A stretch of DNA of 64,000 nucleotides from a bacterium (GCA_017961325.1 JAGCXM010000028.1:21781-85780), one strand, 5' to 3'. Numbered from the stretch's first letter, positions 13,482 through 59,980 are shown. The notes: generated by a model from the letters alone, not told the origin. Numbers and translations: made by a program.

Positions 13482-13497
13482 CCTCACCCCTTTTATT

Positions 13498-35014: not shown

Positions 35015-35028
35015 TGTTTTTTTAGAGG

Positions 35029-35916: not shown

Positions 35917-35931
35917 TTTTTAGTTTCCGAA

Positions 35932-36639: not shown

Positions 36640-36645
36640 CGGAGG

Positions 36646-40501: not shown

Positions 40502-40513
40502 GTTTTCTCTCCG

Positions 40514-46087: not shown

Positions 46088-46287
46088 TGTAAAACTCCTA
46101 TTCTAAAACCAAATAAATTTTTAAAAAACCAGTGTATTTTACCCGTGAAAAGAAAAAAATCCACTTTTTACTGCCGCTTTTTTGCCGCAGTCGATATAGT
46201 GAAATGCTGACAATCGGCATACCGGTCGAAAATGAGGCGGAAACATTTAAAACTTGCCAAAAAAAATCAGATTTTTAAAATGCCGGC

Positions 46288-49077
46288 ATGTTTGGTCGTT
46301 TTTTATTTGTTGCAATCTTATTTTTGTTTCCGTTCGGGATTTTCAGCGGAGATATAACTTTTTCCGATTTTTACCACTTTTCTTCGCGTTCATGGAATGC
46401 CGTTTCTGGGCTTCCCCACAACAATGTCTCATCTTTTTACCGTGATGAAAAAGGTCTGCTCTGGGTAGGAACGGTCGAAGGGCTAGTCAGAATCGATTCT
46501 AAATCGTCCAAAATTTTCAATACAAGCACGACTCGTGCTATTTTGAGCAATAAAATCAACGACTTGTCAGGATGCTACGGCAAAATTTTCGTTGCGACTC
46601 CGATGGGGGTTTCAGAAATCAGTGATTCAGGCTTGAAGATTTCTAAGCTCGCCGAAACGCACGCCATTTTTGATATCGAAACACTCACCGACTGTACTCT
46701 CTTTGCGACGAACGGCAAAGAAATAATGATGATAAAATCAAATAAAATCAGTAAGTTGAGCGAAATAACGGCATTCCCTGAAAGTCCCGTTTCGGTTCTT
46801 TTTTCAGACGGTTTCGCACTTTATGCCGGTTTTGAAAACGGCGAAATCAGAATTTTCGGCGAGGACGGTTTCTCAGGAAACCTCTGCGGCGCAAATTCGT
46901 CGCCGGTTACTGCCGGAAGAGCAAAAGATGGAAGAATTTTTGCCGGAAACGCCGACGGAACCGTTTTTGAACTGAAAAACGGAAAGTGCTTGAAAATTGC
47001 AAGAACCGAATCGCACAAGGCGGTAACTTCACTCGATTTTCAGGAAAAAACAGTTGCTTTTGTCTCCGACGGGGCACTTTTCTTTGCCGAAGGCGGTGCT
47101 CTGAAGCCGTGCGGCAGTTTCTGCGCAGACAACGGTTCCATTTCAAAAGTTATGCTTGACGACGATTTCCTGTGGCTTTCCGGAAGCCGCGGCGTAACTT
47201 TGTTTTATCCTGGAAAATTCATAACTTTGGGACGTGAATCGGGGCTTTTTTCCGAAAAGGTCTATGCCGTTCTCGAAGATGATTCCGGCAGAATCTGGGC
47301 CGGCACACGCGGCGGCGGACTTTTTGTCTACGAAAACGGAAAATTCAGATACCTGAAGGACAGAAAGGGTGATATCGGGCGTTTGGTAGGAGGATTGTTT
47401 CAGAACGACGACGGCAGCATACTAGTCGGAACGACTTCCGGAGTGATTTCGTTTTTGCCGGAAAAGCCCAGTGTTTTCAAGAAGATGAAAGTTTCTCGCA
47501 ATGGAAGTATGAATGCCGTCAGTGTTATTTTCCGTGACAGAAAATCGCGTCTCTGGGCAGGCGGCAGCGGCGGTGCTATTTATCTTGATACCAAAGACGG
47601 CTGGCATCTTCTCCGTAAATTCGGCGACGAATCCGATTTGGTTTCGGCAATCGCTCAGGATAGTCGCGGAAACCTTTGGTTCGCCGCCTCGAAGGGTTTG
47701 TGGCAGCTTGACAGAAATGATGAATTTCATGAGATAAATCAAGGTGTTGACGGAAATATGCCTGTGAGTCTCTTTGTCGATGAAAACGATGTCGTTTTCG
47801 TCGGTTCGATGCACCGCGGCCTCACTTTGATTTTTCCCGATCTTAAATCCGCACAGCTTGATTCACGGAAAGGGCTCTGCAGCGACACGATTCTGGGAAT
47901 GACGGCAGATGAAAGCGGAAATCTCTGGTTTTCAAGCACAAACGGCATTTTTTCCCTTTCAAAACAAGAGGTTGTCGAAGCGGCAAAAAGCGAGAACGGT
48001 TCGCTTTCATGCACTCCTTTCGATTCTACTGACGGAATCCGCCGGCCTGAATCGACGGGAGGAGTCCAGCCTTCTGTTTTGAAGCGCAGAAACGGCGATC
48101 TGTGGTTCCCGACCCTTGAAGGAATCGCGGTTCTCAGACAAAACGGGAGAAAACCTGTTAAATTTGATTCGCTGGTACCTGAAGAAAATCCAACTATTAT
48201 TGTGAAAAGTGAAGAAAAATCAAATTTTTCCGGAATTTTCGTGATTTTGGCGGTTTTTGCTTCGGTAATTTTGGTTTTTGCGGTGAAAAAAGCTTTCAGA
48301 CCTCGCCTCCGGACCCTCTCAAGTGTGGGAGACCTCACCCCTGAACCACTCTCCGGTGTGGCGAGGGGAGAAGACCTCACCCCTGAATCCATCTCTGAAG
48401 CGGTTAGGGGAGAAAAAAATGAGGTCGCCGAGCCTGTGGAACAGAGTCAAGATAATTCTGAAAATATTGAACCAGAAACTGAATTTCTTGAAATTATTGA
48501 AGAAATTGATGATGAACCTCACCCCCGGCCCCTCTCCAGTGTGGCGAGGGGAGACGAGCTTGTTTCCGAACCTGTTTCTGAAGCGGCGAAGGATGAAGAC
48601 CTTATTTCTGAGCCTGTTTCTGAAACGGCAAGGGGAGATGATGAAGAACTTTTCGATCCTGCGGCCGACGAGGTTGAAGAAAAGCGGAAATATGAAGGCT
48701 ATCAGCTGGATGAAGAGATCGCAGCAGCTTATGCCGCCGAGGCGAGAGAGTTGATGGAAAAAGAAAAACTCTATAGAAATCCATATCTTACGATGCCGGA
48801 GGTTGCAAAGAAACTGAAGCTTTCGACAAATACGCTTTCTCAGGTTCTGAACGGCTACTGCGGTCAGACTTTTTACAATTTCATAAATACATACCGGCTT
48901 GAGGAAGTTATTGCGATGATGCATGATCCGAAATGTGACGGCAAAAGCATTCTGAAACTTTCGATCGAAGCCGGCTTCAATACGAAATCGACTTTCAACA
49001 ACATTTTCAAAAAGCGTACGGGACTCACTCCGGCGGAATTCCGCAGAAACATCGGAAATCAAGAAAAAAAGCAATAA
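46288..49077 (+). CDS. One-component transmembrane regulator: two-component-regulator beta-propeller (Reg_prop/Y_Y_Y-like) sensor domain, one TM helix, an acidic repeat-containing linker, and a C-terminal AraC-family HTH
   Basis: N-terminal propeller repeats (LWVGT..GL, LWFAASKGL, LWFSSTNGI); TM IFVILAVFASVILVFAV; C-terminal AraC HTH (...LSIEAGFNTKSTFNNIFKKRTGLTPAEFRR). Confidence 0.7.
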   Translation: MFGRFLFVAILFLFPFGIFSGDITFSDFYHFSSRSWNAVSGLPHNNVSSFYRDEKGLLWVGTVEGLVRIDSKSSKIFNTSTTRAILSNKINDLSGCYGKIFVATPMGVSEISDSGLKISKLAETHAIFDIETLTDCTLFATNGKEIMMIKSNKISKLSEITAFPESPVSVLFSDGFALYAGFENGEIRIFGEDGFSGNLCGANSSPVTAGRAKDGRIFAGNADGTVFELKNGKCLKIARTESHKAVTSLDFQEKTVAFVSDGALFFAEGGALKPCGSFCADNGSISKVMLDDDFLWLSGSRGVTLFYPGKFITLGRESGLFSEKVYAVLEDDSGRIWAGTRGGGLFVYENGKFRYLKDRKGDIGRLVGGLFQNDDGSILVGTTSGVISFLPEKPSVFKKMKVSRNGSMNAVSVIFRDRKSRLWAGGSGGAIYLDTKDGWHLLRKFGDESDLVSAIAQDSRGNLWFAASKGLWQLDRNDEFHEINQGVDGNMPVSLFVDENDVVFVGSMHRGLTLIFPDLKSAQLDSRKGLCSDTILGMTADESGNLWFSSTNGIFSLSKQEVVEAAKSENGSLSCTPFDSTDGIRRPESTGGVQPSVLKRRNGDLWFPTLEGIAVLRQNGRKPVKFDSLVPEENPTIIVKSEEKSNFSGIFVILAVFASVILVFAVKKAFRPRLRTLSSVGDLTPEPLSGVARGEDLTPESISEAVRGEKNEVAEPVEQSQDNSENIEPETEFLEIIEEIDDEPHPRPLSSVARGDELVSEPVSEAAKDEDLISEPVSETARGDDEELFDPAADEVEEKRKYEGYQLDEEIAAAYAAEARELMEKEKLYRNPYLTMPEVAKKLKLSTNTLSQVLNGYCGQTFYNFINTYRLEEVIAMMHDPKCDGKSILKLSIEAGFNTKSTFNNIFKKRTGLTPAEFRRNIGNQEKKQ
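48301..48660 (+). repeat. Degenerate ~39-42-bp tandem units inside the regulator CDS, encoding (S/T)EP(L/V)S.(V/A)ARG(E/D)(D/E)L. Best units at 48333-48370, 48375-48412 and 48517-48553.
   Basis: Units of the form cctcacccc-N-ctctcc-N-gtgtggcgaggggaga, closely related to the gyrA terminator hairpin at 13485-13527. Confidence 0.7.
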
Positions 49078-49257
49078 ATTACAACAAAAAAATATCTGTT
49101 TTTAAGAAAAAAATAAAAAATAAACAATTACTTGATTTTATTTGCGAAACATGGTATTCCTCTACACAGACGGACGTTTTTTGCCAAAGTCCGGTGTTCT
49201 TTTCTACACAGGCGGACGAAATTTATTTGTATATTAAGTAAAAAGTTGCGTTGATGT

Positions 49258-49995
49258 TTGACGGAGGTGGACGTGAGACAGACAAAAGGCTTTTCATTGA
49301 TCGAATTGATGATTGCTTTGGGAATAGTTACGATTCTGGCGACTATTGCCGTTCCCAGAGTTCAAGTCTGGAATGCCAGAAACCGCGGTTTGCAGTTGAT
49401 TATGGAGATCGTCTCGGATTTTTCAAAGGCAAAGTTGATAGCCGTATCTACGGTTGTTAAAAACGATGGCGGGTCCGAAGGAAAAATCGAGGTTCCATCC
49501 GGTAACGGTTCCAATACCGTCAACCTTGGCACGCGGCCTCAGGTTGCAATGGTTTTCTGGTCAGATGGATATAAGATTCTGCAAAAGGCATCACTGAACA
49601 GTAATTGGGAAAACGCTGAAAGTCTTAGAACACAGAAACTGCTTGACTATGTCCATATCGCAACCTTTGCTGACAGCAACATTAACGAGAATATCGTAAT
49701 GAGCAAGGGTTTTTCAAATGCGAAATCCATCGTTTTTACTTCAACCGGATTTGTCAAAAATCAGGACGGTGGCATGATAGAACCGAAACCGAGCAGTGAT
49801 TATGAGTGCGGCGATGTAGATACTAAATTGGCGTCGATTTTTTCAGCTGTTGTGAAAGCCAAGATCAGCGGCACGACAGATGCGATTTGTTACAGGGGTA
49901 TTGTAGATCAGGCCGGGAGATACAACATTTGCATGACTTTTGCACAGGGAGGCGCTGATTGTGATTTCTCAAAAGGATCCGTTGTTGAAATGTAG
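49258..49995 (+). CDS. Type IV minor pilin, FimU/GspH-like (prepilin-type N-terminal cleavage/methylation domain). Probable true start is GTG 49273, giving leader MRQTKG|FSLIEL.
   Basis: KGFSLIELMIALGIVTILATIAVP class-III signal peptide; RBS GGAGG at 49263-49267. Confidence 0.75.
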   Translation: MTEVDVRQTKGFSLIELMIALGIVTILATIAVPRVQVWNARNRGLQLIMEIVSDFSKAKLIAVSTVVKNDGGSEGKIEVPSGNGSNTVNLGTRPQVAMVFWSDGYKILQKASLNSNWENAESLRTQKLLDYVHIATFADSNINENIVMSKGFSNAKSIVFTSTGFVKNQDGGMIEPKPSSDYECGDVDTKLASIFSAVVKAKISGTTDAICYRGIVDQAGRYNICMTFAQGGADCDFSKGSVVEM

Positions 49996-50004
49996 GAGAA
50001 AAAT

Positions 50005-50586
50005 ATGAAAAAGATTAAAGCTTTTACTTTGATAGAGGTTATGGTTTCTATTTTTGTTTTTTCTTCTGCCATGATCGGATTTATGGCGTTTCATGTTTAT
50101 ACCAAGTCGGTTCTGTTCGAGCAGGAAATGTTCCAGGTGGCAAATGCGCTCGCTTCAAACATGCTTGAGGAAATAAACGCCATGTCTTACAGCGGTTTCC
50201 GCGAACATTTTATAACAAACGCACCTCTAAAAGAATGGAGAGAGGACAAAGAGTTTGTTGATTCAAATGGTGAGTCTTCCGGTACATCTTCCGGTGCATT
50301 TGGCAAGGGTTTTGTAGCAAGTCCTTTTAATTCTTTCGGAAAGCCGTCGCCTGATGCCAATGATAACTACCGTTTTTACAGAGCTGTAAAAGTTACGGCG
50401 TACGCAGAACGAACACAGAGGTTTGTTCAAAAAGGTACATATCTTTCCACGCTTTATGAAGTTGAAGTGCGTGTAGCGTGGCCGAAAAGTGATTATCCTG
50501 CGCACAGTTGCGATAAATCCGGTTTTAATGACAAATGTGAGTCTATAACTATTCCTTTGATAAGATCGGCCGAAAACTATAGATGA
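50005..50586 (+). CDS. Type IV minor pilin, PilV-like
   Basis: MKKIKAFTLIEVMVSIFVFSSAMIGFMAF prepilin N-terminus (G|FTLIE with Glu5). Confidence 0.75.
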   Translation: MKKIKAFTLIEVMVSIFVFSSAMIGFMAFHVYTKSVLFEQEMFQVANALASNMLEEINAMSYSGFREHFITNAPLKEWREDKEFVDSNGESSGTSSGAFGKGFVASPFNSFGKPSPDANDNYRFYRAVKVTAYAERTQRFVQKGTYLSTLYEVEVRVAWPKSDYPAHSCDKSGFNDKCESITIPLIRSAENYR

Positions 50587-50599
50587 GAAGGAGTGATAT

Positions 50600-51706
50600 A
50601 TGGGTAAAAACGGTAATATGAAAGCTTTCACCATTATCGAACTTATGGTGAGCATATTTCTTACGATATTAGTAGTAGCCTCATTTTACAAACTCTACAA
50701 TATAGCATCAAGGGAAGAACGTTCTTCCGCAATCAGAATCTCAATCAATGTTGCCGGTGAGCAGATGCTTGATGCGATTTCAAATGCAATCAGATTTATA
50801 GGCTTGAACGGCAAACTCTCCGATTTGGACTTTTATAATAGCGGGACAATTAGTTCTGCCAGGCCGTTAATAAGGATTGCGGAGCAAGATCAGTTCGAGT
50901 TTCTCTCACCTTACGGCGGACCTGTAACCAAGCTGGCCAAGGATGCTGAAGGAACGTATCCGAACTGCACTTTCACCTTGGTCAGCAGTACCGCCCTCAG
51001 TAATAAAACAAAATCCTTTTTCTTTCACAATCAGGATGGAATTTTTGAAACAGAAGAAGACGAGGACTTAACTGTAAGCATAAGCAGCAGCGGTGAACTC
51101 GTTTTTACAAACGGATCAGGTTTTAAAAATGCTCCGAGAAACGATTTGGACGGTACGGAGTGCAGTGCTGTTTTTCCGTACGGGACGTTAGTTTCAGGAC
51201 AGGATAATTTTTTTATGCTGAAGTACAACGATGCTACCGGGCAGCTTAAACTCTGCTTTACTGATAAAGAAAGTATGATGACCTCGGCAGACTGTATTAA
51301 TGGATTTAATGAAGAAAAGGACACATCGGTTGTAAATTTTATGCCAGATGCAGATAAGACTTACGATATGCCCACATTCTTCATTCAGTATCTCACTGAA
51401 ACCAAATCCGGAAATGATCTCGTTGTAAAATGGCAGAACGGTACCTTGGGTACCTCGGAGGGCGAAGATCTCAGAAAAGATATTGTCGCAGTCAGGTTCG
51501 GATTTGTTCTTATTTCGGAAAGAACAAGAAATGAGGGAAACTATCCTGTAAATTTAAATTTTAGCGAGGAATACTGCATTTTCGGTGACGAGAGATACAA
51601 AACAAAAGATTGTTATACTCTTAGAGACCCGAACAAAACTGCTTATGTTTTTCGGCGTGTAGTATACCTTGCAAATCATCGTTTGCTGAAAGATTTCAAT
51701 AATTGA
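50600..51706 (+). CDS. Type IV minor pilin, PilW-like
   Basis: MKAFTIIELMVSIFLTILVVASFYKLY...; 368 aa, typical PilW size. Confidence 0.7.
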   Translation: MGKNGNMKAFTIIELMVSIFLTILVVASFYKLYNIASREERSSAIRISINVAGEQMLDAISNAIRFIGLNGKLSDLDFYNSGTISSARPLIRIAEQDQFEFLSPYGGPVTKLAKDAEGTYPNCTFTLVSSTALSNKTKSFFFHNQDGIFETEEDEDLTVSISSSGELVFTNGSGFKNAPRNDLDGTECSAVFPYGTLVSGQDNFFMLKYNDATGQLKLCFTDKESMMTSADCINGFNEEKDTSVVNFMPDADKTYDMPTFFIQYLTETKSGNDLVVKWQNGTLGTSEGEDLRKDIVAVRFGFVLISERTRNEGNYPVNLNFSEEYCIFGDERYKTKDCYTLRDPNKTAYVFRRVVYLANHRLLKDFNN

Positions 51707-51714
51707 GGTGAAAA

Positions 51715-52323
51715 ATGCTGAAAATCACGTTTCATTCAAGAGGTGCAGCGCTTTTTGTAAGCGTTCTGATGACATTGAGCCTTTCGATTATAGCTTTAGC
51801 AACCATGTCGAAACTTTCCGAGCTTTCCCACACGGGAGTCGGTGATTCGGAGGAGAGGCGGCTTCAGATATATGCTTTTTCTGCGATGAATATCGTAAAC
51901 GGTGAGCTCAGACAGCTTCTTGATTCTACTCTGGATTTTGCAGACTTTTATTCGATCGGAGCCGGTGAAACCGTATCTATAAATGTTACCAACAGGGATT
52001 TCAAATACTATCCGTTAGACACCGGTAAAGGCGGCAAGGAAACGAAATTTGCATATCGTGCGATTGCGAGAAAGCTCACGACTAACAGCGATGCATTGCT
52101 TTACGGCATAGTAGGTAAATTTAAATTTAATTTAAACAAAGATGCCTGCTACGATATCATGGTGGATGTAATACCAGTTACATTTATCGGAACTAGCACC
52201 AATAATGTAATAGAAGTGGAAGAATCCGGAGACAATCCGGATCAATATGTTTTAGGTAAAATGAAGACTGTCGGGCAGATAAGCTGCTTTACAAAAGGAG
52301 AAATTGATCATACAGGTAATTAA
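51715..52323 (+). CDS. PilX/GspK-like minor pilin (PilX N-terminal-type hydrophobic segment, no Glu5)
   Basis: MLKITFHSRGAALFVSVLMTLSLSIIALATMSKLSEL. Confidence 0.65.
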   Translation: MLKITFHSRGAALFVSVLMTLSLSIIALATMSKLSELSHTGVGDSEERRLQIYAFSAMNIVNGELRQLLDSTLDFADFYSIGAGETVSINVTNRDFKYYPLDTGKGGKETKFAYRAIARKLTTNSDALLYGIVGKFKFNLNKDACYDIMVDVIPVTFIGTSTNNVIEVEESGDNPDQYVLGKMKTVGQISCFTKGEIDHTGN

Positions 52324-52337
52324 ATAAGAGGTGTGAT

Positions 52338-55300
52338 ATGAAACGGTTTGTAACACAAAACAGAATTTTAGCAGTTTTCGTTTCGGCGCTGTTGCTTCCG
52401 GTTTTGCTGGTGGCGGTGACGGAATCGGAGTTGGATGATGTTGCGGCTATGATTACGGTTGCCAAAAAAGCTGCCAATACCATTTTTATTCTCGACACCT
52501 CCGAAAATATGAACAGTTTTGCGTACAGCGACTATATCGAAACTTGTGCAGACGCTTATGCTAACGCTGAACATGCACATGAAATCTGTCTTAATTCTTT
52601 GGAACAGTGCCTGGAAGTAAAGGACGCAACTGATGGTTTCTGCGGCAGTGTCGACTGTACGCAGCTTGCGAACGGTTGCGATGAGATTAAGACGACGCAG
52701 AAAAGAGTTGAAAATTACTGCAATGATTTGAAGGCTGTTTACGCTTTCATGGATGATCCTGATCATCAGCCGGAAAACAGACAGCTGACCAGATCAGGAA
52801 CCGACCCGAAGAGAGAGAGGTTTGTCGGTCCTTGGAATCCTGACAGTTTCTATACGCAAGATCTCTGTTTTTACGACTGGACGAACGATACCAACGGTGA
52901 CGTACTGAACGGAACTACTTCCGAGCACTGGTCTAATCCGTCCTGCGACTATGATCCGGAACATTGCCATAATGTCGGAACATCCAAAGAAAAAGACCCG
53001 AAAGGTGCAACGTTGTCTGAAACCGCTTATTACGGCAGTGACCGCAGGGACTGGGACTGCATAACCGACGGTAACGACAATATGGACAACGGTCAGAGTT
53101 TTTCATCTTTGAAGGGCGGCGTCAGCGGGCACTGGCTCAACTGGAGATACGCGACATCCCTTGATGCCGTTAAAATTCTTCTTGCGAATGTCCACCAGTT
53201 TTCATATCCTCCGAGGTGGAGAGGCGAAAACAAGTGTATCCAATACAATTACAAGCCGGTCAAACCTGACATAACTCAGTGTGAAGAAGGCTACACTAAA
53301 GAGGTCGTTAATGATGCAACGGGCGAGGTCCGCTGTAAGGATTCAGACGGTAACACGGACAAATCTTATTACAAGAAGATATGTTTCATAAGCCCTGAAC
53401 CAACTAACGGCGGATCCTATTTTGATACGGCGTATCTGGACAAAGAGGATGAAGAGCGGTCTAAAATCCTTAATGCTATGCGTACGCTTGTTTCGGGTTC
53501 ATGGTCGGCTGACGATAAAGGCGAACACGAAAATGAGGTTTGTGCAAACTATGACTTGTTAGCCGATTTTTCGTTCTATGACAAAAAAGACGGTCCGGGT
53601 TTGCATTTTGATAAAGGAACATCCGCACATCCGGCACCAGTCAGTGCGGAAACGGCCGGTTGTCACAAGTGTATGAAGTTTAACGGTGATACCGAGGATC
53701 CGGCTTTTGAAGAAATGGATTGCGAGGAGTTTGAAGTCGATGCAGAATTCGATAATAACATACCGAGAGAACAAAATTTCGACGGTGAATATACTGCCAC
53801 ATATAGTCAGAAATGCTGCAAAACTTCTAAGTGTACAAATCCAAAGTGCAGGGACAACGATCTTTGCTGCAAGAATAATAGTACAGCTTATCCGGACGAA
53901 ACTTCCGAAGGATACAAAACCTGTCTTAAAGACGGCGAATATCAGTGCAACCTCGGTTTTTACAGCGAATTCGACCAGGATAAGACCCACTGCTGCGGAT
54001 CGGTGGAATGTGTAAACGGTGAAACAATCGAAGAGTATCTGACCGATACCACGACCGGATGCCAGATCTGCTCGATCGGTTCAGTAATGACGGAAAAAAA
54101 CGAAACCTCTACTTTTGTCAGCGAACCTGTTCTTCCTAATCCAGGGGCATATATGTATGATGAGAACATAGAGTTTAAAGTTAAAATCGCATCCATGGAT
54201 GGTGGGGATAACATTGAAGATATGACGGTAACGCTTTATTACGCCTGCAATAACGATACCGACTCGTGGCATGAGATGGCAAGTTTTACCTGTTACAGAG
54301 ACAGTGATCCTGACTGCGAAGACTATTATGAGAATGATAAGGAGATAATGACTCCCAAACTTTCCGGTTGTGAAACTGAAGGTTATAAGGTCAAGCTCGA
54401 AGTTTCTACTACGGGAAGATACTGCAAGATAGAAAGCAGCGAAAGTTTTTCAGTCTCATTCAAATACGAACTTCCGGAAGGTAACTTCTCCGGTAAAAAA
54501 GAGTGGCAGAAAGTATTAGATCCCACACAAGATTACTACATGATTCTAAAAAATCAGGCCGGCGGTGATCAGAGTGTGGTAGTTCATGAATATGAGTGCA
54601 AACAGGCTTTCTATCATACTCAGGCGTATACCGATTCCAGTTCCTGTCCTAGGGACGCGAACAAAATCGTTCAAAAATTTCACGAGAAGGGATATACGGA
54701 TGTCAAATACTGCGATCCGGATTACAGGAGAGAGGAAGTCATCATGAAGCAAAGCGGCTGCGGTTTTGAAATATCATATTTCTGTTCATACCTTTGCCGT
54801 GACGAAGTCACTTACAACGAACCCTGGGCGTGCATGGCTACATTCTTTCAGATGGACGAATACGAGAGAGGCGGTATTGAGAAATGTTCACAAGAGTGTC
54901 AGAGGGAATCGTATATAAGTCCGAATCCTTCAGGAGGAAAAACTAACAATGTCGAAGAATGCTGCCGTTGTATAGATCGTGCTTATTATTATGAGGCAGG
55001 CTGGTATCAGGATGAACCGTTTTTCGAGCCGGTGCAGGGTGTTTCCATGCCGGATGCTCCCGGTAGCAGTACAAAAAAGACTTACCATTGCGCCGTCAGT
55101 GCCATCAAGGGAAGTGACACTCAGGTCGGATTCCATGCCGAAATTATAAACGGACATACCAATGAAGTTATGAACAGTGTGACCGGCCAATATGACGGAA
55201 CATACCTCCTCAGTCCGTATGTCCTTGATGATGAAACCCTGTTCTCGCCGTATGATGAGTGGATTTCCGCTAGAACTTTCATTGAAACGAAATCAAAAGA

Positions 55301-58300
55301 CTTAGGTATCAGAGATACGACCATCAGCGGTTTCAAAACATCGAGCTCGGCGGAGAGAAGGAATGTCTGCATATACGATCTTTTGGATGACTGGGGCGGC
55401 GATCTCTGCAGCATATGCAGCACGGTTTCTTGCGGCAACTGCCTAGATCCTAGTATAAGTGTTCCTGATGACAAGTGTACCGATCCGAATTTCTGGATGA
55501 AAGTTCCGCGAAGCGAAGGCGGCGAGCTGATTTTCTCGAAGGAACAGATTGTCGATCCGGATTCAAGAGCCCGTTTCCAGAAGGCTATAAAAGAATTGAA
55601 AGCCGTGGGCGGTCCGACACTGGGTGAAACACTTTACGATGCATGGAGATTCCTCGGCGGAATGTATGCCCTGCACGATCCCAAACATGTTGTCGGTAGT
55701 GAAGAAGGACCTTATGAATCTCCGTTTGCTAACCAGGAACCGGAGTGTTTCTCAAACGAGGTCGTTGTTCTTTCGGGCGGTCAGGCACAGTTCGACCACA
55801 ACAACAGAATCGAAAAAGTGGAGGGCATTAACGTAACCTGTCCTTCAATGTCGCAGGTTAGCGAGATACCATGCGTCGCGCCTACCGAAGATGACTATTA
55901 TGACAACAGCGCGGATGGAGGCAGAGGTGGTTATGTGAATAGAAACAAACCTTATTACGAAACTGACTGGTATCAGTCATCCATTATGAATGTGGCAAGA
56001 TTTGTAAAGACCCATTCTTTCTATAATACTAATGAGAATTGTGTCAAAACCGACCAGCTGAAGAGAAATATTTTGGGTTATGAGGGAGATCCTGATGATA
56101 CAAAGTGTATGGAAACAATTGCTGGTGAAGGAAACAACAAGGCTGTTATAAACAGGATCCACTCCGGAGCTATCGGAGAATGGACTCTTTCGGCTCTCTA
56201 TAACAAACCAGACTTTGAATATCTGGAAAAAATCACGAAGAAGTATCCGACTGATGATGAAACGGCGACAGATGGCAAATACTGTTCGCTTACACTCGGC
56301 AAAGACAGTGTAAACGACTGTTCGTTCAGAAATATTACGGATCTTCTCTCCGATTTGTTGACGTTGCCTCAGCCTACCGATGTCGAGTCCGGTCGTCCGC
56401 ACTGGACATCTTCCCTTGTCCAGCCTTTCGATGTCGAGGAAAAATACCGCGGTCCGGAAGCTTATGTAGCCGGAGCTGTTCCCATAGCATCGGCAACGAG
56501 CAGATTCTGGTTCGGAAACCTCAAAAAATATATGGTCGACGAAGGAAATAGCGATTGCAACAAAACTATTTCGTGTGAGGGTTATGCGGAAAATAATGGC
56601 CAGTGCGGTACTGGCTGCGGAGGTTGGCAGAAACAGACATTCGCATCTTCGGCAGACTGTTTTGTCGATAATGACAATGGGGTTGGTGATATGCCTGGCG
56701 ATGACAGCGAGGATTTCAGAAGACTGCTTGCCGGCGGAGCCGCAAGAAAACTTTCAGATAAACTGAGAACCGAGACGTGCAGCAATCCTCCCTGCTTTAA
56801 GAAAGTAAGCACAAGGACGATATACTACGATGCGGACAATGCTCCGAATACTGACCTTAAGCTACTTAAAGATATCAGCGACGGCGACATGAGCATACTT
56901 CTCGACGAATTCGGATTGACCGGAGGAGCCGCTACAGCTGAAAAGATTTTCGATTATATGTACGGTTATGATTCGTTTGCCGATAATGTCGATCAGCAGA
57001 GGAAACTAAGATTCGGTTACGATAATAGTCCTACCGGCACGTCCATAACAGTAAGGGATCCGTTGAACATCGATTTCAACAACAAAAAGTATGTAACAAT
57101 CCGTCCGGTTCTTCTCGGCGCAATCGTTCACTCAAAACCGGTTGCGGTTTATTACGGCAATAATACCAAGACAAGAATTTTCGCAGGAGCCAACGACGGT
57201 ATGCTGCATGCTTTTGACGAAAGCGGAAATGAACAATGGGCTTATATCCCGAGCAATGTCCTTCCGTCCGTCCGCAAGATTGCCAACAATTCGAATTCCA
57301 TGAATTTCAAGGCTATGGTTGACGGTCCGATCACATTCTTCCACATTGATCAGAGCCATGACGGAATTGTTGATGAAGGCGAGAAGGCTTTCCTTATTTT
57401 CGGTTACAGGCGTGGAGCGAAAGGCTATACCGTAATTGATGTCTCCGAACCGGATAGCCCGAAATTCGTTCAGAATATCAACACGAACGGCGGTTACAGT
57501 TTCGGAAAGGCTCTCATATTCAGGAAGTGTCCCGGTGTTTGCAATTATGCGGAAGAACTTGACTATTATCTTGCCGTTCCCGGCGGTTACGACGATTGTG
57601 AAGACGGTGACGATCCTGACTGCAAAATGCCAGAGGACAGCTCAAATGAGGGCGGTAACGTTATGAAAGGCAACAAATTCGCTATTTATCCTTTCAATAA
57701 GGAACAAAACAAATTTTCAACGAGTGCAGGGTCATTTTTCAATTATGAGCGTGATTCCGAAGGTGAAACAAACAATCAGAAGAAATGGCTTGTCGCTTCG
57801 TTTGCCGCTGAACCTTTTGCAATAAACACCAAAGGCAAAAGATCAATCAATACCGAATTCGTCTACTTTACCGATCTTACCGGAACTGTATTCAGAGTCG
57901 ATGTCAGAGACGGAAATATACATGACTGGAAAGATAAAACAAAAGTCGTTTTTGCTAAGAGAAATTCCGCCGGCGATACGGGAGGCGTAAAACTCTTTGA
58001 ACAGGGCAAGAGTTATGCCGGCAACAATTTATTCCCGCCTTTGGAAATATACAACCCCGGAGGCGACAATAAGGAGGGACTGGTTCCGATCCCCGTCGTA
58101 TTCGGAGACGCTTCGTGGCCGAAAATTGATACTGAAAAAGCTTCAATGACCATTTTCTACGACAAGCAGCCTAAGGAGGATGAAGATTATCAGGCAAGTT
58201 ACAGCGGTTACAACTCGAATGATTATGAAACCGCAGATCTTAACAACAACAACCAGTTCCATTCCGGCAAGAGCGGTTGGAGAATAGATTTCGGCGGCTC

Positions 58301-58715
58301 AGAAGATTCGAAAGGTGAAAAAGGCATCACGGAGCCGATGATACTTTACGATCTTTACGGCAGCAACGGAAGTTCAGACACGTATGATTACTCGCTTGCA
58401 TGGAACACATATGTTCCGAAAAAGAGTACTGATTGCATGAATTTCGGAACGAGTTTCAACTACGACAGACATGTCGTGGACGGTTCGAATATTTTGAAAC
58501 TGACAGAAATGTCCAGTACTGTCGGCGAATGGGATCCTTCGAAGTGCAAAGACTCTTCGACGCAGGGCATAAGTGTTGCGACTGCGGTAGGAGTGGTTGC
58601 AACGAGTGAGGGATACGATCTTGCTTTCGGAGCGGGAGCAGACATATACAGAAAGCCGGGAATTACTGTCGTTATCAGTACGACCCGTGTTCTTAAATGG
58701 TATGAGCTTTACTAA
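52338..58715 (+). CDS. pilY1: Giant (2125 aa) PilY1-like pilus tip adhesin: N-terminal vWA domain apparently interrupted by a ~1000-aa Cys-rich insertion, plus a C-terminal PilY1/PilC beta-propeller domain
   Basis: Signal peptide; vWA start TIFILDTSENM (MIDAS DxSxN); later vWA elements AVGGPTLGETLYDAW and EVVVLSGGQA about 3.1 kb downstream; C-terminal RIFAGANDGMLHAFDESGNEQWAYIPSNVLP (PilY1 hallmark) and DQSHDGIVDEGE Ca-loop-like motif. Confidence 0.8.
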   Translation: MKRFVTQNRILAVFVSALLLPVLLVAVTESELDDVAAMITVAKKAANTIFILDTSENMNSFAYSDYIETCADAYANAEHAHEICLNSLEQCLEVKDATDGFCGSVDCTQLANGCDEIKTTQKRVENYCNDLKAVYAFMDDPDHQPENRQLTRSGTDPKRERFVGPWNPDSFYTQDLCFYDWTNDTNGDVLNGTTSEHWSNPSCDYDPEHCHNVGTSKEKDPKGATLSETAYYGSDRRDWDCITDGNDNMDNGQSFSSLKGGVSGHWLNWRYATSLDAVKILLANVHQFSYPPRWRGENKCIQYNYKPVKPDITQCEEGYTKEVVNDATGEVRCKDSDGNTDKSYYKKICFISPEPTNGGSYFDTAYLDKEDEERSKILNAMRTLVSGSWSADDKGEHENEVCANYDLLADFSFYDKKDGPGLHFDKGTSAHPAPVSAETAGCHKCMKFNGDTEDPAFEEMDCEEFEVDAEFDNNIPREQNFDGEYTATYSQKCCKTSKCTNPKCRDNDLCCKNNSTAYPDETSEGYKTCLKDGEYQCNLGFYSEFDQDKTHCCGSVECVNGETIEEYLTDTTTGCQICSIGSVMTEKNETSTFVSEPVLPNPGAYMYDENIEFKVKIASMDGGDNIEDMTVTLYYACNNDTDSWHEMASFTCYRDSDPDCEDYYENDKEIMTPKLSGCETEGYKVKLEVSTTGRYCKIESSESFSVSFKYELPEGNFSGKKEWQKVLDPTQDYYMILKNQAGGDQSVVVHEYECKQAFYHTQAYTDSSSCPRDANKIVQKFHEKGYTDVKYCDPDYRREEVIMKQSGCGFEISYFCSYLCRDEVTYNEPWACMATFFQMDEYERGGIEKCSQECQRESYISPNPSGGKTNNVEECCRCIDRAYYYEAGWYQDEPFFEPVQGVSMPDAPGSSTKKTYHCAVSAIKGSDTQVGFHAEIINGHTNEVMNSVTGQYDGTYLLSPYVLDDETLFSPYDEWISARTFIETKSKDLGIRDTTISGFKTSSSAERRNVCIYDLLDDWGGDLCSICSTVSCGNCLDPSISVPDDKCTDPNFWMKVPRSEGGELIFSKEQIVDPDSRARFQKAIKELKAVGGPTLGETLYDAWRFLGGMYALHDPKHVVGSEEGPYESPFANQEPECFSNEVVVLSGGQAQFDHNNRIEKVEGINVTCPSMSQVSEIPCVAPTEDDYYDNSADGGRGGYVNRNKPYYETDWYQSSIMNVARFVKTHSFYNTNENCVKTDQLKRNILGYEGDPDDTKCMETIAGEGNNKAVINRIHSGAIGEWTLSALYNKPDFEYLEKITKKYPTDDETATDGKYCSLTLGKDSVNDCSFRNITDLLSDLLTLPQPTDVESGRPHWTSSLVQPFDVEEKYRGPEAYVAGAVPIASATSRFWFGNLKKYMVDEGNSDCNKTISCEGYAENNGQCGTGCGGWQKQTFASSADCFVDNDNGVGDMPGDDSEDFRRLLAGGAARKLSDKLRTETCSNPPCFKKVSTRTIYYDADNAPNTDLKLLKDISDGDMSILLDEFGLTGGAATAEKIFDYMYGYDSFADNVDQQRKLRFGYDNSPTGTSITVRDPLNIDFNNKKYVTIRPVLLGAIVHSKPVAVYYGNNTKTRIFAGANDGMLHAFDESGNEQWAYIPSNVLPSVRKIANNSNSMNFKAMVDGPITFFHIDQSHDGIVDEGEKAFLIFGYRRGAKGYTVIDVSEPDSPKFVQNINTNGGYSFGKALIFRKCPGVCNYAEELDYYLAVPGGYDDCEDGDDPDCKMPEDSSNEGGNVMKGNKFAIYPFNKEQNKFSTSAGSFFNYERDSEGETNNQKKWLVASFAAEPFAINTKGKRSINTEFVYFTDLTGTVFRVDVRDGNIHDWKDKTKVVFAKRNSAGDTGGVKLFEQGKSYAGNNLFPPLEIYNPGGDNKEGLVPIPVVFGDASWPKIDTEKASMTIFYDKQPKEDEDYQASYSGYNSNDYETADLNNNNQFHSGKSGWRIDFGGSEDSKGEKGITEPMILYDLYGSNGSSDTYDYSLAWNTYVPKKSTDCMNFGTSFNYDRHVVDGSNILKLTEMSSTVGEWDPSKCKDSSTQGISVATAVGVVATSEGYDLAFGAGADIYRKPGITVVISTTRVLKWYELY

Positions 58716-58725
58716 GGAGGACAAT

Positions 58726-59508
58726 ATGAGAAAAATTTTAGTACTTATTTTTGTCGTTGCTCTGAATTTCACACTTTTTGCTGACAGAACGGCCGGAAAA
58801 GGCAACTCATATTCGGAATTCCCGTTTATTGTTCTTGTCGGACAACTTGTTGAAATCAATCCGTTTTCTGTTGTTTTTGAAAACACTTTGTATGAAGCGA
58901 ATACCGACACTGAAAAAATAGGCAGACTAATAGAAGTCTTTGAAAAGGATACCGATTTCAGATCCCACGGGATGGCCAATGCTCTTCGTGCGGCTAGCGT
59001 GAAAAACGGAAAAATGAGGCTTTCCTTCTATGTGGACAATATTTTCAGAATTTTCAGCAACGATGCTTCAACTTATGTACGTTATCTTCCCCTTTTACAC
59101 CTTTTCGAAAACAATATCAAAGAAGTAATGCTTACGCCGGAGCAGGTAGAGAGAATCAAAAAGATTTCGGCTGAATATGTCCTCAATCTTCCGGCAGCTA
59201 AGGAACTTATCAAAAATTCCTGGCTTGCAGGAGTTTTCCAGATCAGTCCGACTGACGGTAAACTTGTTTATAAAAGTGCGAGATTCTTTAAAGATTTTGA
59301 TGAACTCAACCAGAGTGAGTGGGCGAGGAACTACAGAATTCCCGATATTGTCAGGAGAGGGATGACCGTTTCAATGACGAAGGCGATTTTTATAGGTCAT
59401 GAATCCGAAAACGTTAAGAGCGAAGAGAAGGAAAAAGGTGAAAAATCTGGACAAAATAAAAAACAGTTCGATAATAGAAGCGGTGCTCCTGCCGGAAGGG
59501 AGAAATAA
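58726..59508 (+). CDS. Secreted hypothetical protein in the PilY2 position of the minor-pilin operon. Start taken at ATG 58726, preceded by AAGGAGG; the ORF track begins at 58597, overlapping pilY1.
   Basis: Signal peptide MRKILVLIFVVALNFTLFA; operon context. Confidence 0.55.
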   Translation: MRKILVLIFVVALNFTLFADRTAGKGNSYSEFPFIVLVGQLVEINPFSVVFENTLYEANTDTEKIGRLIEVFEKDTDFRSHGMANALRAASVKNGKMRLSFYVDNIFRIFSNDASTYVRYLPLLHLFENNIKEVMLTPEQVERIKKISAEYVLNLPAAKELIKNSWLAGVFQISPTDGKLVYKSARFFKDFDELNQSEWARNYRIPDIVRRGMTVSMTKAIFIGHESENVKSEEKEKGEKSGQNKKQFDNRSGAPAGREK

Positions 59509-59509
59509 A

Positions 59510-59980
59510 ATGACTGCATCATCCAAAAGTTTCAAAGGATTTACAATGATAGAACTTTTGATGGTTCTTGCCATAATCGGTGTCATTGTGGCCTTTGCGG
59601 TTCCTATTTTTAGCTATTTTTCAGACAGTTCGAAAGTTGACGAGTTGAAGTCCAAGATGTTTTTATTGGCAGGAGCACAGGAAAAATATTTTATAAAAAA
59701 CGCTACATACGCTCCTTCATTACAGTCACTTGGAGGCGCAAATACGTTCGGAATCAGTGCTGATGACGGAATGGATTTCGCAACAGGCGTTTATATTAAA
59801 AAAGGCGGCGAAATGTTCTACTGGATTTACGGCAAACGCTGTATAAACAACACTCCGCACTGCTGGCTTTATATTCCGTCTTTGGTGTCCAAACAAACGA
59901 CGGATGTTACTAATTTCATAGAATTGAAATCCGGTGTGAAGGTAGCTTACGACATACCGAATAATTGCGTGTGTGAATGA
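59510..59980 (+). CDS. Type IV pilin (PilE/PilA-like). Start ATG 59510, immediately after the previous stop.
   Basis: Leader MTASSKSFKG|FTMIELLMVLAIIGVIVAFAVPIF; C-terminal Cys pair (disulfide loop). Confidence 0.75.
   Translation: MTASSKSFKGFTMIELLMVLAIIGVIVAFAVPIFSYFSDSSKVDELKSKMFLLAGAQEKYFIKNATYAPSLQSLGGANTFGISADDGMDFATGVYIKKGGEMFYWIYGKRCINNTPHCWLYIPSLVSKQTTDVTNFIELKSGVKVAYDIPNNCVCE

What the first reader, a model, noticed from the sequence alone, without database searches (positions are those of the whole stretch)
46288..49077. Sensor-propeller/TM/AraC one-component regulator directly upstream of the pilin operon
The domain arrangement (periplasmic Reg_prop/Y_Y_Y-type propeller, single TM, cytoplasmic AraC HTH, no kinase or receiver) resembles a stripped-down Bacteroidetes hybrid two-component sensor. 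It sits 180 bp upstream of the minor-pilin operon in the same orientation, making it a candidate glycan/surface-responsive regulator of pilus or adhesin expression.
Basis: inference. Interest (0 to 1): 0.55.

Follow-up and report, generated by a model that had tools for sequence, protein, structure and literature searches.

The report
Membrane-anchored propeller–AraC regulator of pilus-tip operon
An uncultured rumen bacterium carries a single membrane protein with an outside sugar-sensor-type domain wired directly to a DNA-binding domain, and comparative evidence suggests it switches on the neighbouring genes for the adhesive tip of a type IV pilus; this is a new variant of a recently recognised kind of regulator, not a new kind.

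Summary
The ORF is real: 46288-49077 (+), 929 aa. It has a signal peptide, an HTCS-type tandem β-propeller, one TM helix, a 120-aa disordered acidic linker and an AraC/XylS DNA-binding domain. There is no Y_Y_Y, HisKA, HATPase or REC domain.

The gene belongs to rumen MAGs of candidate phylum UBP6 (genus UBA1177).

Two comparative results tie it to the downstream fimU-pilVWXY1E-like operon:
- The order regulator → four prepilin-like genes → giant PilY1-like gene holds in every orthologous locus long enough to show it, down to 27-28% regulator identity. It is absent beside more distant propeller sensors.
- The intergenic region carries two 16-bp direct repeats (CTACACRGNCGGACGA) 42 bp apart. 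The proximal one overlaps the missing −35 of a −10-like element. Repeats and spacing are kept in 12 aligned loci, occur nowhere else in the window, and a metagenome scan found the pair only at this locus.

Best reading: a dedicated membrane-tethered one-component activator, analogous to BguR and SusR, that acts by ligand-driven pairing of two flexibly tethered DNA-binding domains. The signal is unknown; a glycan is a guess. It is a new variant of a known kind, of moderate interest.

The parts
46254..46281 (+). Own promoter of the regulator gene: TTGCCA-N16-TAAAAT, ending 6 nt before the ATG. There is no Shine-Dalgarno, so the mRNA is probably leaderless or has a very short leader.
   Evidence: Promoter scan gives 10 of 12 matches. 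The block AAAACTTGCCAAAAAAAATCAGATTTTTAAAATGCCGGCATG is nearly invariant in 7 orthologous loci, while the rest of the upstream region is not conserved (A2).
46288..49077 (+). Regulator gene (929 aa): membrane-spanning one-component propeller/AraC protein.
46288..46350 (+). Signal peptide (aa 1-21, MFGRFLFVAILFLFPFGIFSG).
   Evidence: Read from the sequence. It is hydrophobic and has low pLDDT. Cleavage is inferred, not tested.
46378..48135 (+). Periplasmic tandem β-propeller sensor (aa 31-616), HTCS type, without a Y_Y_Y domain.
   Evidence: Pfam Reg_prop, 5 stretches. AF2 pLDDT is mostly 85-95. Foldseek matches 4a2l/4a2m at E 1e-31 with TM 0.6, and 3v9f. hmmsearch matches 4a2l at 1.6e-43. Mean identity among close orthologues is 74%.
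48136..48228 (+). Periplasmic juxtamembrane segment (aa 617-647). It sits where deeper orthologues have Y_Y_Y. It is predicted disordered but is 61% conserved.
48229..48288 (+). Single transmembrane helix (aa 648-667), followed by KKAFRPRLR (positive-inside).
   Evidence: AF2 helix 648-667; sequence. Identity among orthologues is only 49%.
48289..48648 (+). Cytoplasmic linker (aa 668-787). It is disordered, acidic (28% D+E) and hypervariable: 36-120 aa in the close clade, 21% identity. It contains 3-4 in-frame copies of a REP-like palindromic DNA element.
   Evidence: pLDDT about 30. No Pfam hit at E<=10. Length and composition table. Tandem repeats and element copies.
48649..49074 (+). Conserved pre-HTH helix (FDP..EKxKYEGYQLDDEIAAAYA..LYRNPxLT) plus the AraC/XylS two-HTH DNA-binding domain (aa 788-929).
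   Evidence: HTH_18 and HTH_AraC score above the Pfam cut-offs. AF2 shows 7 helices at pLDDT about 90. Identity among orthologues is 77-80%. The same juxta-HTH segment occurs in multi-TM AraC proteins of Flavobacterium.
49131..49156 (+). Conserved block CTTGATTTTATTT-N6-CATGGTA just upstream of the distal repeat. It is seen in the close clade only and its role is unknown.
49162..49177 (+). Distal direct repeat CTACACAGACGGACGT (candidate AraC-domain binding site).
   Evidence: One of only two exact matches to the consensus in 64 kb. Conserved in 12 loci at a fixed 40-43 bp from the proximal copy.
49204..49219 (+). Proximal direct repeat CTACACAGGCGGACGA, covering the position where a −35 hexamer would lie.
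   Evidence: The paired pattern was found in metagenomes only at orthologous regulator-pilin intergenic regions, 5 of 5.
49230..49235 (+). −10-like hexamer TATATT (TATAAT in L010 and L011). The hexamer 17 bp upstream is CACAGG, so no −35 is recognisable.
   Evidence: Read from the sequence. No transcription start has been mapped; this is an inference.
49273..49995 (+). pil1: prepilin-type protein (FimU/GspH-like), starting MRQTKGFSLIE from GTG 49273 with a GGAGG at 49263-49267.
   Evidence: N_methyl 2.2e-7; TIGR02532.
50005..50586 (+). pil2: PilV-like minor pilin.
   Evidence: N_methyl 7e-6. The TIGR02523 PilV hit is 5.8e-5, below its cut-off.
50600..51706 (+). pil3: PilW-like, assigned by position and size, with the prepilin-like N-terminus KAFTIIELMV.
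   Evidence: Weak N_methyl hit at 0.0044. Conserved in orthologous loci.
51715..52323 (+). pil4: PilX-like, assigned by position, with an N-terminal hydrophobic segment. No HMM hit.
52338..58715 (+). Giant PilY1-like protein (2125 aa).
   Evidence: PDB 3hx6 (PilY1 C-terminal domain) at E 4.9e-10. The Pfam T4P_PilY1 hit is 5.9e-5, below its cut-off. Conserved downstream in all orthologous loci.
58726..59508 (+). Conserved secreted or lipoprotein-like gene of unknown family. It follows directly after pilY and has its own AGGAGG.
   Evidence: no Pfam hit; conserved.
59510..59980 (+). PilE-like pilin (KGFTMIELL), the last gene of the cluster.
   Evidence: N_methyl 1.6e-6.

Best explanation
The gene encodes a type-I membrane protein that is a complete signalling pathway in one chain. 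A secreted HTCS-type double β-propeller sits in the periplasm. One TM helix anchors it. A long, floppy, acidic linker leads to a cytoplasmic AraC/XylS DNA-binding domain.

The protein is made from its own conserved σ70-like promoter. It acts locally as the dedicated regulator, most likely an activator, of the adjacent fimU-pilVWXY1E-like operon. That operon encodes the priming and tip complex of a type IV pilus, including a 2125-aa PilY1-like adhesin.

Two DNA-binding domains are proposed to occupy the two 16-bp direct repeats, which lie 42 bp apart (four helical turns, the same DNA face). The proximal repeat replaces the missing −35 element, which is the class II activator geometry.

Both sides of the TM helix are flexible and poorly conserved, and linker length varies from 36 to 120 aa among close orthologues. 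The signal is therefore most likely passed on by ligand-dependent pairing or clustering of the periplasmic sensors, which brings two tethered DNA-binding domains together at the membrane. This resembles ToxR/CadC 'diffusion and capture'. A rigid piston or scissor movement is unlikely.

What is shown: the architecture, the fold, the absence of phosphorelay modules, the conserved synteny, and the conserved, locus-specific operator-like repeats.

What is inferred: DNA binding to those repeats, activation rather than repression, the dimerisation mechanism, and the ligand. A plant-fibre oligosaccharide is a reasonable guess from the homology to HTCS sensors and the rumen habitat, but nothing here tests it.
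For: Architecture and topology.

Functional constraint: more than 50 orthologues at 55-80% identity have invariant residues in both the sensor and the DNA-binding domain.

Synteny:
- Regulator → pil1-4 → pilY holds in the 11 of 13 genome loci that extend past the regulator (L007 and L012 are cut inside it). In the shortest of these (L009, L013) only the first genes are visible.
- It also holds in L080 (28% identity) and in 5 metagenome loci.
- Prepilin motifs are absent beside 60+ more distant propeller-sensor loci. Two other propeller-Y_Y_Y-AraC proteins sit next to unrelated genes.

Operator-like repeats:
- There are two exact consensus matches in 64 kb, and both lie in this intergenic region.
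- Invariant alignment columns cluster in the two repeats and in the −10-like element (A3).
- Spacing is 40-43 bp in 12 of 12 loci.
- The paired pattern occurs in the JGI metagenome collection only at this locus, 5 of 5.

Precedent for the motif structure: predicted motifs of HTCS AraC domains and of SusR are likewise direct repeats with long spacers, 21 bp and 67/77 bp respectively (PMC3878776).

Precedent for the protein class: BguR is a propeller-Y_Y_Y-TM-GerE one-component activator of an adjacent locus (bioRxiv 10.64898/2026.01.10.698779).

Other points:
- The organism uses σ70-like promoters, as shown by the conserved TTGCCA-N16-TAAAAT of the regulator gene. This makes the missing −35 at pil1 meaningful.
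- No riboswitch or other Rfam family lies in the region.
Against: - There are no expression or binding data of any kind.
- No terminator-like site lies between the regulator stop and pil1, so some read-through co-transcription is possible.
- The repeat motif is not recognisable in the most distant syntenic locus, L080.
- A site overlapping −35 could also serve a repressor.
- Regulon size could be checked only in this 64-kb window and with a strict paired pattern, so further targets elsewhere in the genome are not excluded.
- The Y_Y_Y domain, the membrane-proximal part of the HTCS and BguR sensors, is missing. Transfer of their signalling logic to this protein is therefore uncertain.
- The dimerisation mechanism is argued only from disorder and variability, not from any model of a dimer.
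Confidence: 0.65

Rival explanations
1. The regulator and target are the same, but activation is by regulated proteolysis. Ligand binding, or its loss, exposes the conserved periplasmic juxtamembrane segment or the disordered cytoplasmic linker to a protease. The AraC domain is then released as a soluble factor that binds the repeats.
For: Both flanks of the TM helix are disordered. The periplasmic juxtamembrane segment is conserved (61%) despite being unstructured. A cleavage-dependent route has been reported even for the classical membrane one-component regulator CadC (PMC11484849).
Against: The TM helix lacks conserved helix-breaking residues and is only 49% conserved. No protease gene is conserved in the neighbourhood. 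A monomeric released domain would not by itself explain two strictly phased sites. A linker that varies from 36 to 120 aa and is filled with repeat-element copies offers no conserved cleavage site.
Confidence: 0.15
2. The periplasmic propellers do not sense an environmental glycan. Instead they monitor the pilus machinery itself, namely periplasmic PilY1 or unassembled minor pilins, giving feedback control of the operon. From my own knowledge, this is what minor pilins and PilY1 do through FimS-AlgR in Pseudomonas aeruginosa.
For: Regulator and operon are inherited strictly together over a wide divergence range, 27-80% identity. The regulon appears to consist of this one operon. No carbohydrate-active enzyme or transporter genes are linked to the locus.
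Against: All solved relatives of the sensor are glycan sensors of polysaccharide utilisation systems. The only characterised one-component relative responds to a glycan. There is no direct evidence either way.
Confidence: 0.15
3. The adjacency is conserved, but the direct repeats belong to a different transcription factor, and this protein controls other genes elsewhere, or the divergent Lcl_C surface-protein genes.
For: Binding is not demonstrated. In the rumen clade two large Lcl_C genes lie divergently upstream.
Against: No copy of the motif, and no other conserved repeat pair, lies in the 200-bp divergent region. The Lcl_C genes are missing from that position in deeper orthologous loci, where lgt is the upstream neighbour, while the pilin operon is always present. 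The repeat structure fits what is predicted for this type of AraC domain. The motif pair is specific to this locus.
Confidence: 0.05

Closest known systems
[quoted passage not shown]
   Same: Both have a signal peptide, an HTCS-like tandem β-propeller periplasmic sensor, a single TM helix, a cytoplasmic HTH output and no HisKA, HATPase or REC. Both are encoded directly upstream of the locus they are thought to control, with a conserved motif in the intergenic region. BguR is genetically proven to be an activator.
   Different: BguR has a GerE/LuxR output, whereas this protein has AraC. BguR keeps the Y_Y_Y domain and an α-helical linker; here Y_Y_Y is lost and the linker is disordered and of variable length. 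BguR controls β-glucan PULs and is almost restricted to Bacteroidota. This one is tied to a type IV pilus minor-pilin/PilY1 operon in candidate phylum UBP6.
Bacteroides hybrid two-component systems, e.g. BT4663 (PDB 4a2l/4a2m) and BT3049 (3v9f)
   Same: The sensor is the best sequence and fold match. The output is a C-terminal AraC-type DNA-binding domain. Predicted operators are direct repeats on one DNA face (PMC3878776).
   Different: This protein has no histidine kinase, no receiver and no Y_Y_Y. Its repeats are 42 bp apart rather than about 21 bp. In HTCSs the DNA-binding domain is held in check by interdomain contacts within a constitutive kinase dimer (PMC11253607), and those domains do not exist here.
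SusR, the starch-utilisation regulator of Bacteroides and a membrane-associated one-component system
   Same: It is a membrane-bound sensor-regulator without phosphorelay that activates an adjacent locus. Its predicted operator is a direct repeat with a long spacer of 67 or 77 bp (it is cited as the only comparable architecture).
   Different: The sensor fold and the DNA-binding domain are unrelated to those of this protein, and the target is a starch PUL.
ToxR/CadC-type membrane-integrated one-component regulators
   Same: They are single-pass membrane transcription factors with a periplasmic sensor, and they find DNA while membrane-bound (PMC6320335 and PMC7888679, listed). From my own knowledge, CadC has a disordered cytoplasmic linker.
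   Different: Their polarity is opposite: an N-terminal winged-helix OmpR-type DNA-binding domain with a C-terminal sensor. The sensor folds differ, and there is no sequence relationship.
FimS-AlgR control of fimU-pilVWXY1E in Pseudomonas aeruginosa (own knowledge)
   Same: The regulated unit is the same kind: a minor-pilin operon ending in pilY1 and pilE, collinear with window 49273-59980.
   Different: FimS-AlgR is a classical two-component system with phosphotransfer and a LytTR output, and it is not encoded next to the operon.

Membership tests
Hybrid two-component system (HTCS) | Periplasmic Reg_prop tandem β-propeller sensor | tested here: met
   Pfam Reg_prop at 1e-23. PDB 4a2l at 1.6e-43. 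Foldseek 4a2l/4a2m at 1e-31.
Hybrid two-component system (HTCS) | Y_Y_Y (PF07495) membrane-proximal domain | tested here: not met
   No hit at E<=10. The alignment shows a deletion of about 90 residues relative to P0054 and P0056, which have the domain.
Hybrid two-component system (HTCS) | HisKA + HATPase_c kinase core | tested here: not met
   No hit at E<=0.01 on the whole protein and none at E<=10 on aa 600-830. Only about 120 disordered residues separate the TM helix from the HTH domain.
Hybrid two-component system (HTCS) | Receiver (REC) domain | tested here: not met
Hybrid two-component system (HTCS) | C-terminal AraC-type HTH | tested here: met
   HTH_18 at 60.9 bits against a cut-off of 33.6, and HTH_AraC at 29.6 against 26.6.
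Membrane-spanning propeller one-component systems (BguR type) | Signal peptide, tandem propeller sensor, single TM helix, cytoplasmic HTH and no phosphorelay domains | tested here: met
Membrane-spanning propeller one-component systems (BguR type) | GerE/LuxR-type output domain and α-helical linker | tested here: not met
   The output is AraC. The linker has pLDDT about 30 and no secondary structure.
Membrane-spanning propeller one-component systems (BguR type) | Encoded next to the regulated locus, with a conserved intergenic motif | tested here: met
   Synteny and direct repeats.
Membrane-spanning propeller one-component systems (BguR type) | Transcriptional activation of the neighbouring locus in response to a periplasmic ligand | not testable with these tools
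   This needs genetics or a reporter assay. The organism is uncultured.
AraC/XylS family DNA-binding domain | Two helix-turn-helix motifs joined by a long helix (7-helix MarA-like fold) | tested here: met
   AF2 helices at 809-826, 836-842, 847-857, 862-879, 888-894, 900-911 and 915-928, with pLDDT about 90. Pfam and NCBIfam hits. PDB hits to SoxS, Rob, AraC and ToxT.
Type IVa pilus minor-pilin operon (fimU-pilVWXY1E type), the presumed target | Several genes with a prepilin N-terminal cleavage/methylation motif | tested here: met
   N_methyl in pil1, pil2 and the 59510-59980 gene, and a weak hit in pil3.
Type IVa pilus minor-pilin operon (fimU-pilVWXY1E type), the presumed target | PilY1 C-terminal propeller domain in the large protein | tested here: inconclusive
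   phmmer to PDB 3hx6 gives E 4.9e-10 over about 120 residues. The Pfam T4P_PilY1 hit scores 22.6 bits, below the cut-off of 28.1.
ToxR-like membrane-integrated regulators | N-terminal cytoplasmic winged-helix (OmpR-type) DNA-binding domain with a C-terminal periplasmic sensor | tested here: not met
   The polarity is opposite and the DNA-binding domain is AraC. The resemblance is functional only.

The most novel reading that the evidence does not exclude
This may be a 'proximity-only' transmembrane switch that couples HTCS-type sensing to pilus adhesion. On this reading the clade discarded every rigid coupling element. It lost Y_Y_Y outside the membrane. Inside, the linker became a 36-120-aa disordered tether that is freely remodelled by a REP-like palindromic DNA element. 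Ligand-induced pairing of the propellers would then be the only thing that places two AraC domains on direct repeats four helical turns apart, turning on the PilY1/minor-pilin tip complex. The ligand could be a plant-fibre oligosaccharide or PilY1 and the minor pilins themselves. If the ligand is a fibre glycan, this would be the first direct link between polysaccharide sensing of the Bacteroides HTCS kind and type IV pilus-mediated attachment, and it would lie in an uncultured rumen phylum.
Probability: 0.25. Interest if true: 0.7.

Novelty: new variant of a known kind. Interest (0 to 1): 0.5.

Why it matters
Membrane-spanning one-component regulators with HTCS-like sensors were recognised as a functional class only in a 2026 preprint. 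That work has one characterised example (BguR), a LuxR-type output, a glycan-utilisation target, and a distribution almost restricted to Bacteroidota.

This locus extends the class in three ways:
- to an AraC output;
- to another phylum, UBP6;
- to a different kind of target, the adhesive tip and priming complex of a type IV pilus.

It also offers a compact, experimentally tractable system. There is one protein, one promoter and two well-defined 16-bp sites. It could be used to ask how a signal crosses the membrane when both tethers are flexible.

For rumen biology, it gives a concrete hypothesis for how an uncultured fibre-associated lineage decides when to build its adhesin.

The interest is moderate. 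The architecture already exists in database annotations, and neither the signal nor the regulation has been demonstrated.

Tried and rejected
- **Cryptic kinase or receiver domains.** I looked for HisKA, HATPase, REC and Y_Y_Y with Pfam at E<=10 on aa 600-830 and found nothing.
- **RNA elements.** I searched 45900-49500 against Rfam at E<=1, with c-di-GMP riboswitches upstream of pilin genes in mind, and found nothing.
- **Terminator after the regulator gene.** None lies between the stop codon and pil1, so independent transcription cannot be argued from a terminator.
- **Autoregulation or control of the divergent Lcl_C genes.** No motif copy lies in 46088-46287 or anywhere else in the window.
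- **A wider regulon.** The strict paired-repeat pattern returned only five orthologous loci from the metagenome collection. A single-site scan was not run, because roughly thousands of chance hits would be expected by my own estimate.
- **The motif in the most distant syntenic locus.** It is not recognisable in L080.
- **A general link between propeller sensors and pilins.** This was rejected. More than 60 distant loci lack nearby prepilin motifs, and two other propeller-Y_Y_Y-AraC proteins have unrelated neighbours.
- **Biology of UBA1177/UBP6.** The literature search gave only taxonomic mentions.
- **AraC-type regulators of minor-pilin/PilY1 operons.** The literature search found no precedent.
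- **A decaying HTCS remnant.** This was rejected because more than 50 orthologues keep both domains at 74-80% identity.


Full report
**1. What is there**

The ORF 46288..49077 (+) is the only long ORF at this position. It encodes 929 aa.

Pfam finds Reg_prop repeats (E 1e-23), HTH_18 (aa 840-920) and HTH_AraC, all above the curated cut-offs, and nothing else. A second scan at E<=10 on aa 600-830 returns no family at all. There is therefore no cryptic Y_Y_Y, HisKA, HATPase or REC domain.

An AlphaFold2 model built on 32 homologues (mean pLDDT 77) gives the following layout:
- aa 31-616: β-sheet propellers, pLDDT mostly 85-95;
- aa 631-647: unstructured stretch;
- aa 648-667: one TM helix;
- aa 667-799: a segment at pLDDT about 30 with no secondary structure;
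- aa 809-928: a confident seven-helix AraC-type domain.

The best structural matches are the periplasmic domains of the Bacteroides thetaiotaomicron hybrid two-component systems BT4663 (4a2l/4a2m, E 1e-31, TM about 0.6) and BT3049 (3v9f). The profile-sequence search agrees (4a2l, E 1.6e-43).

The N-terminus (MFGRFLFVAILFLFPFGIFSG) looks like a signal peptide, and basic residues follow the TM helix. The propellers are therefore periplasmic and the AraC domain cytoplasmic; this is read from the sequence and the topology has not been tested.

There is no Y_Y_Y domain. The first pilin gene most likely starts at GTG 49273, behind a GGAGG, so the gap is about 195 bp.

**2. Where it comes from**

The closest genomic loci are rumen and gut MAGs from cattle, yak, buffalo, goat and red deer. 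They include 'bacterium UBP6_UBA1177'. Red-deer and cattle RUGs of this type were classified as phylum UBP6, genus UBA1177 (PMC7820578).

The window is ordinary chromosome. It carries gyrB, gyrA, EF-G, lgt and psd.

**3. The family**

The protein database holds about 50 clusters at 55-80% identity with the same architecture. A few follow at 37-40%, and then a long tail at about 25% identity. In that tail the same sensor is fused to histidine kinases, full HTCSs, GGDEF, PP2C, Ser/Thr kinase, MCP or cyclase outputs.

Several of the distant proteins are also propeller-Y_Y_Y-AraC with no kinase. JGI labels them 'ligand-binding sensor domain-containing protein/AraC-like DNA-binding protein'. The bare architecture is therefore already present in annotations.

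Conservation within the close clade is very uneven:

| Segment | Mean identity to the window protein |
|---|---|
| Propellers | 74% |
| Pre-HTH helix | 80% |
| HTH domain | 77% |
| TM helix | 49% |
| Cytoplasmic linker | 21% |

The linker also varies in length from 36 to 120 aa. It is acidic and rich in Pro, Ser and Thr.

Deeper orthologues (L009-L011, L013, L080) still carry a Y_Y_Y domain and have shorter linkers of about 30-75 aa. The rumen clade has thus lost Y_Y_Y and expanded the linker.

**4. The neighbour**

Downstream, on the same strand, lie:
- four genes with prepilin-type N-termini: pil1 is FimU/GspH-like and pil2 PilV-like, while pil3 and pil4 are PilW- and PilX-like by position and size;
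- a 2125-aa protein whose C-terminal part matches the PilY1 C-terminal domain (3hx6, E 4.9e-10);
- a conserved gene of unknown family;
- a PilE-like pilin.

The order is collinear with fimU-pilVWXY1E of P. aeruginosa (own knowledge). That operon encodes the complex that primes pilus assembly and sits at the tip.

**5. Evidence that the two belong together**

(a) Synteny.
- tblastn of the window proteins against the 13 closest genome loci shows the regulator followed by the pilin genes in the 11 loci that extend past the regulator. The operon is complete through pilY wherever the contig is long enough. Regulator identity in these loci runs from 71% down to 27%.
- The same holds for L080 at 28% identity and for five metagenome contigs.
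- The upstream neighbour changes. It is lgt in the deep branches; in the rumen clade two Lcl_C genes are inserted between lgt and the regulator.
- A regex scan for prepilin N-termini finds none beside 60+ more distant propeller-sensor loci.
- Two unrelated propeller-Y_Y_Y-AraC proteins have other neighbours.

(b) A conserved operator-like structure.
- The intergenic region holds CTACACAGACGGACG at 49162 and CTACACAGGCGGACG at 49204. These are the only exact matches to the consensus in 64 kb.
- In an alignment of 12 orthologous intergenic regions, the invariant columns fall in these two boxes (core TA....G.CG.AC), in a −10-like element, and in the Shine-Dalgarno (A3).
- The centre-to-centre distance is 40-43 bp in all 12 loci, and 42 bp in nine of them. 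This is four helical turns.
- A scan of the JGI metagenome collection with the paired pattern gave five hits, all at this same intergenic position.

(c) Promoter logic.
- The regulator's own promoter is a near-consensus TTGCCA-N16-TAAAAT that is almost invariant among orthologues. The organism therefore uses σ70-type promoters.
- At pil1 there is a −10-like TATATT (TATAAT in L010 and L011) but no −35. The proximal box occupies that position, as in class II AraC/MarA-type activation. This is inference; no transcription start has been mapped.

(d) Precedent for the motif structure. Comparative genomics of Bacteroides predicted that HTCS AraC domains recognise direct repeats about 21 bp apart, and that SusR-like membrane regulators recognise direct repeats 67 or 77 bp apart. 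In both cases the monomers sit on one DNA face (PMC3878776). The 42-bp repeat pair here fits that pattern.

**6. Mechanism**

The best-supported reading is a dedicated, membrane-tethered one-component activator of the pilus-tip operon.

The closest characterised analogue is BguR of Formosa agariphila. It is built as propeller-Y_Y_Y-TM-helical linker-GerE. It is required for a roughly 70-110-fold induction of the adjacent laminarin locus, and it has a conserved motif in the intergenic region (bioRxiv 10.64898/2026.01.10.698779).

The present protein differs in ways that bear on how the signal crosses the membrane:
- The segment between the propellers and the TM helix is unstructured.
- The TM helix is poorly conserved.
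- The cytoplasmic linker is disordered and varies three-fold in length among close relatives.

A piston or scissor movement, as proposed for the HTCS dimer (own knowledge of the BT4663 work), can hardly be transmitted through such tethers. I therefore favour ligand-controlled pairing or clustering of the sensors. This would raise the local concentration of two DNA-binding domains so that both phased boxes are filled. It resembles what has been described for ToxR/CadC-type receptors, which search for DNA from the membrane (papers listed).

Regulated proteolytic release is the main alternative. A precedent has been reported for CadC. Nothing here supports it specifically.

The ligand is unknown. 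Homology points to oligosaccharides. The strict one-operon association would also fit feedback from PilY1 and the minor pilins.

**7. What argues against the model**

- There are no expression or binding data.
- No terminator follows the regulator gene.
- The motif is not recognisable in the most distant syntenic locus.
- The regulon could be examined only in 64 kb and with a strict pattern.
- Repression cannot be excluded.

**8. Novelty and score**

The protein is not an HTCS, because three defining domains were tested and are absent. It is not a BguR-family member in the strict sense either, because the output domain, the linker and the Y_Y_Y status all differ.

It works like the newly described membrane-spanning propeller one-component systems and like SusR. 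I rate it a new variant of a known kind, with:
- an AraC output;
- flexible tethers;
- a type IV pilus target, for which the literature search found no precedent;
- a host in an uncultured phylum.

Interest is 0.5. This is a clear, testable system with a well-defined operator, but the architecture is already annotated in databases, and the signal and the regulation remain inferred.

**9. Side observations**

These are listed in full under 'noticed in passing'. The most striking one concerns the linker. It contains several in-frame copies of a palindromic, REP-like DNA element. The same element also occurs as a terminator-like hairpin after gyrA. In different orthologues the element is read in all three frames, giving PLQSGEG, PSPEWRGE and PLSSVARGE.

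Noticed in passing
window 48299-48555 (inside the regulator's linker) and window 13482-13522 (intergenic, after gyrA): A REP-like palindromic element, CCTCACCCC-N6-8-CCCTCTCC-AGYGT-GGMGAGGGG, occurs once as a terminator-like hairpin after gyrA. It also occurs 3-4 times in frame within the coding sequence of the disordered linker. In orthologues the linker peptides PLQSGEG, PSPEWRGE and PLSSVARGE are the three reading frames of the same hairpin DNA. The linker has therefore been repeatedly colonised or remodelled by this element, reminiscent of Rickettsia palindromic elements in coding genes.
   Followed up: partly
L080 4206-7910 (P0057; also P0058): In a distant, GC-rich relative the upstream lgt gene (prolipoprotein diacylglyceryl transferase) and the regulator are one 1234-aa ORF. 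The former signal peptide serves as an extra TM segment, so the topology stays consistent. The fused gene is still followed by the pilin/PilY1 operon. lgt is the direct upstream neighbour in L009-L013 as well.
   Followed up: partly
window 46247-46290: The regulator's promoter, TTGCCA-N16-TAAAAT, ends 6 nt before the ATG and there is no Shine-Dalgarno. The block is almost invariant in 7 loci, so the mRNA is probably leaderless. Some database gene calls (P0010, P0033, P0040) read through this block as a spurious N-terminal extension, KTCQKKSDFYNAA.
   Followed up: partly
window 49131-49156: A conserved block, CTTGATTTTATTT-N6-CATGGTA, lies just upstream of the distal repeat in the close clade only. 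It does not form a convincing σ70 promoter and its role is unexplained.
   Followed up: no
window 39134-46087 (- strand) and 60405-61133 (+): Two Lcl_C-domain proteins, of 1857 aa (with cysteine-rich repeats) and 455 aa, are inserted divergently between lgt and the regulator in the rumen clade only. A third Lcl_C protein lies downstream of the pilin cluster. These are probably surface or adhesion proteins flanking the pilus operon.
   Followed up: partly
P0050 (723 aa) and P0051 (619 aa), database homologues: Two close homologues at 62-64% identity carry only the propeller part and no HTH domain. They could be truncations within the repeat-rich linker, or assembly or gene-call artefacts.
   Followed up: no
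L081 8001-10748, L083 8001-10610: Other propeller-Y_Y_Y-TM-AraC one-component proteins at 23-24% identity sit next to unrelated genes. One, from an unnamed MAG, neighbours a C1 peptidase and glycosyltransferases. The other, from Krumholzibacteriota, neighbours a DUF4097 gene. The architecture is thus reused for other targets.
   Followed up: partly
L050 9344-10444 (Flavobacterium artemisiae) and similar loci L054-L075: Multi-TM membrane proteins of 366 aa end in an AraC domain with the same juxta-HTH signature, KYEKSxL...LYKNPDLTL. This signature seems to mark membrane-tethered AraC domains in general.
   Followed up: no
window 33932-38259 (+): Upstream of lgt lies a cluster of four genes: a 360-aa protein with no family, an FHA-domain protein, an ankyrin-repeat protein, and a ParA/MinD-like ATPase fused to an HTH_25 (RodZ-like) domain. 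Any relation to the pilus locus is unknown.
   Followed up: no
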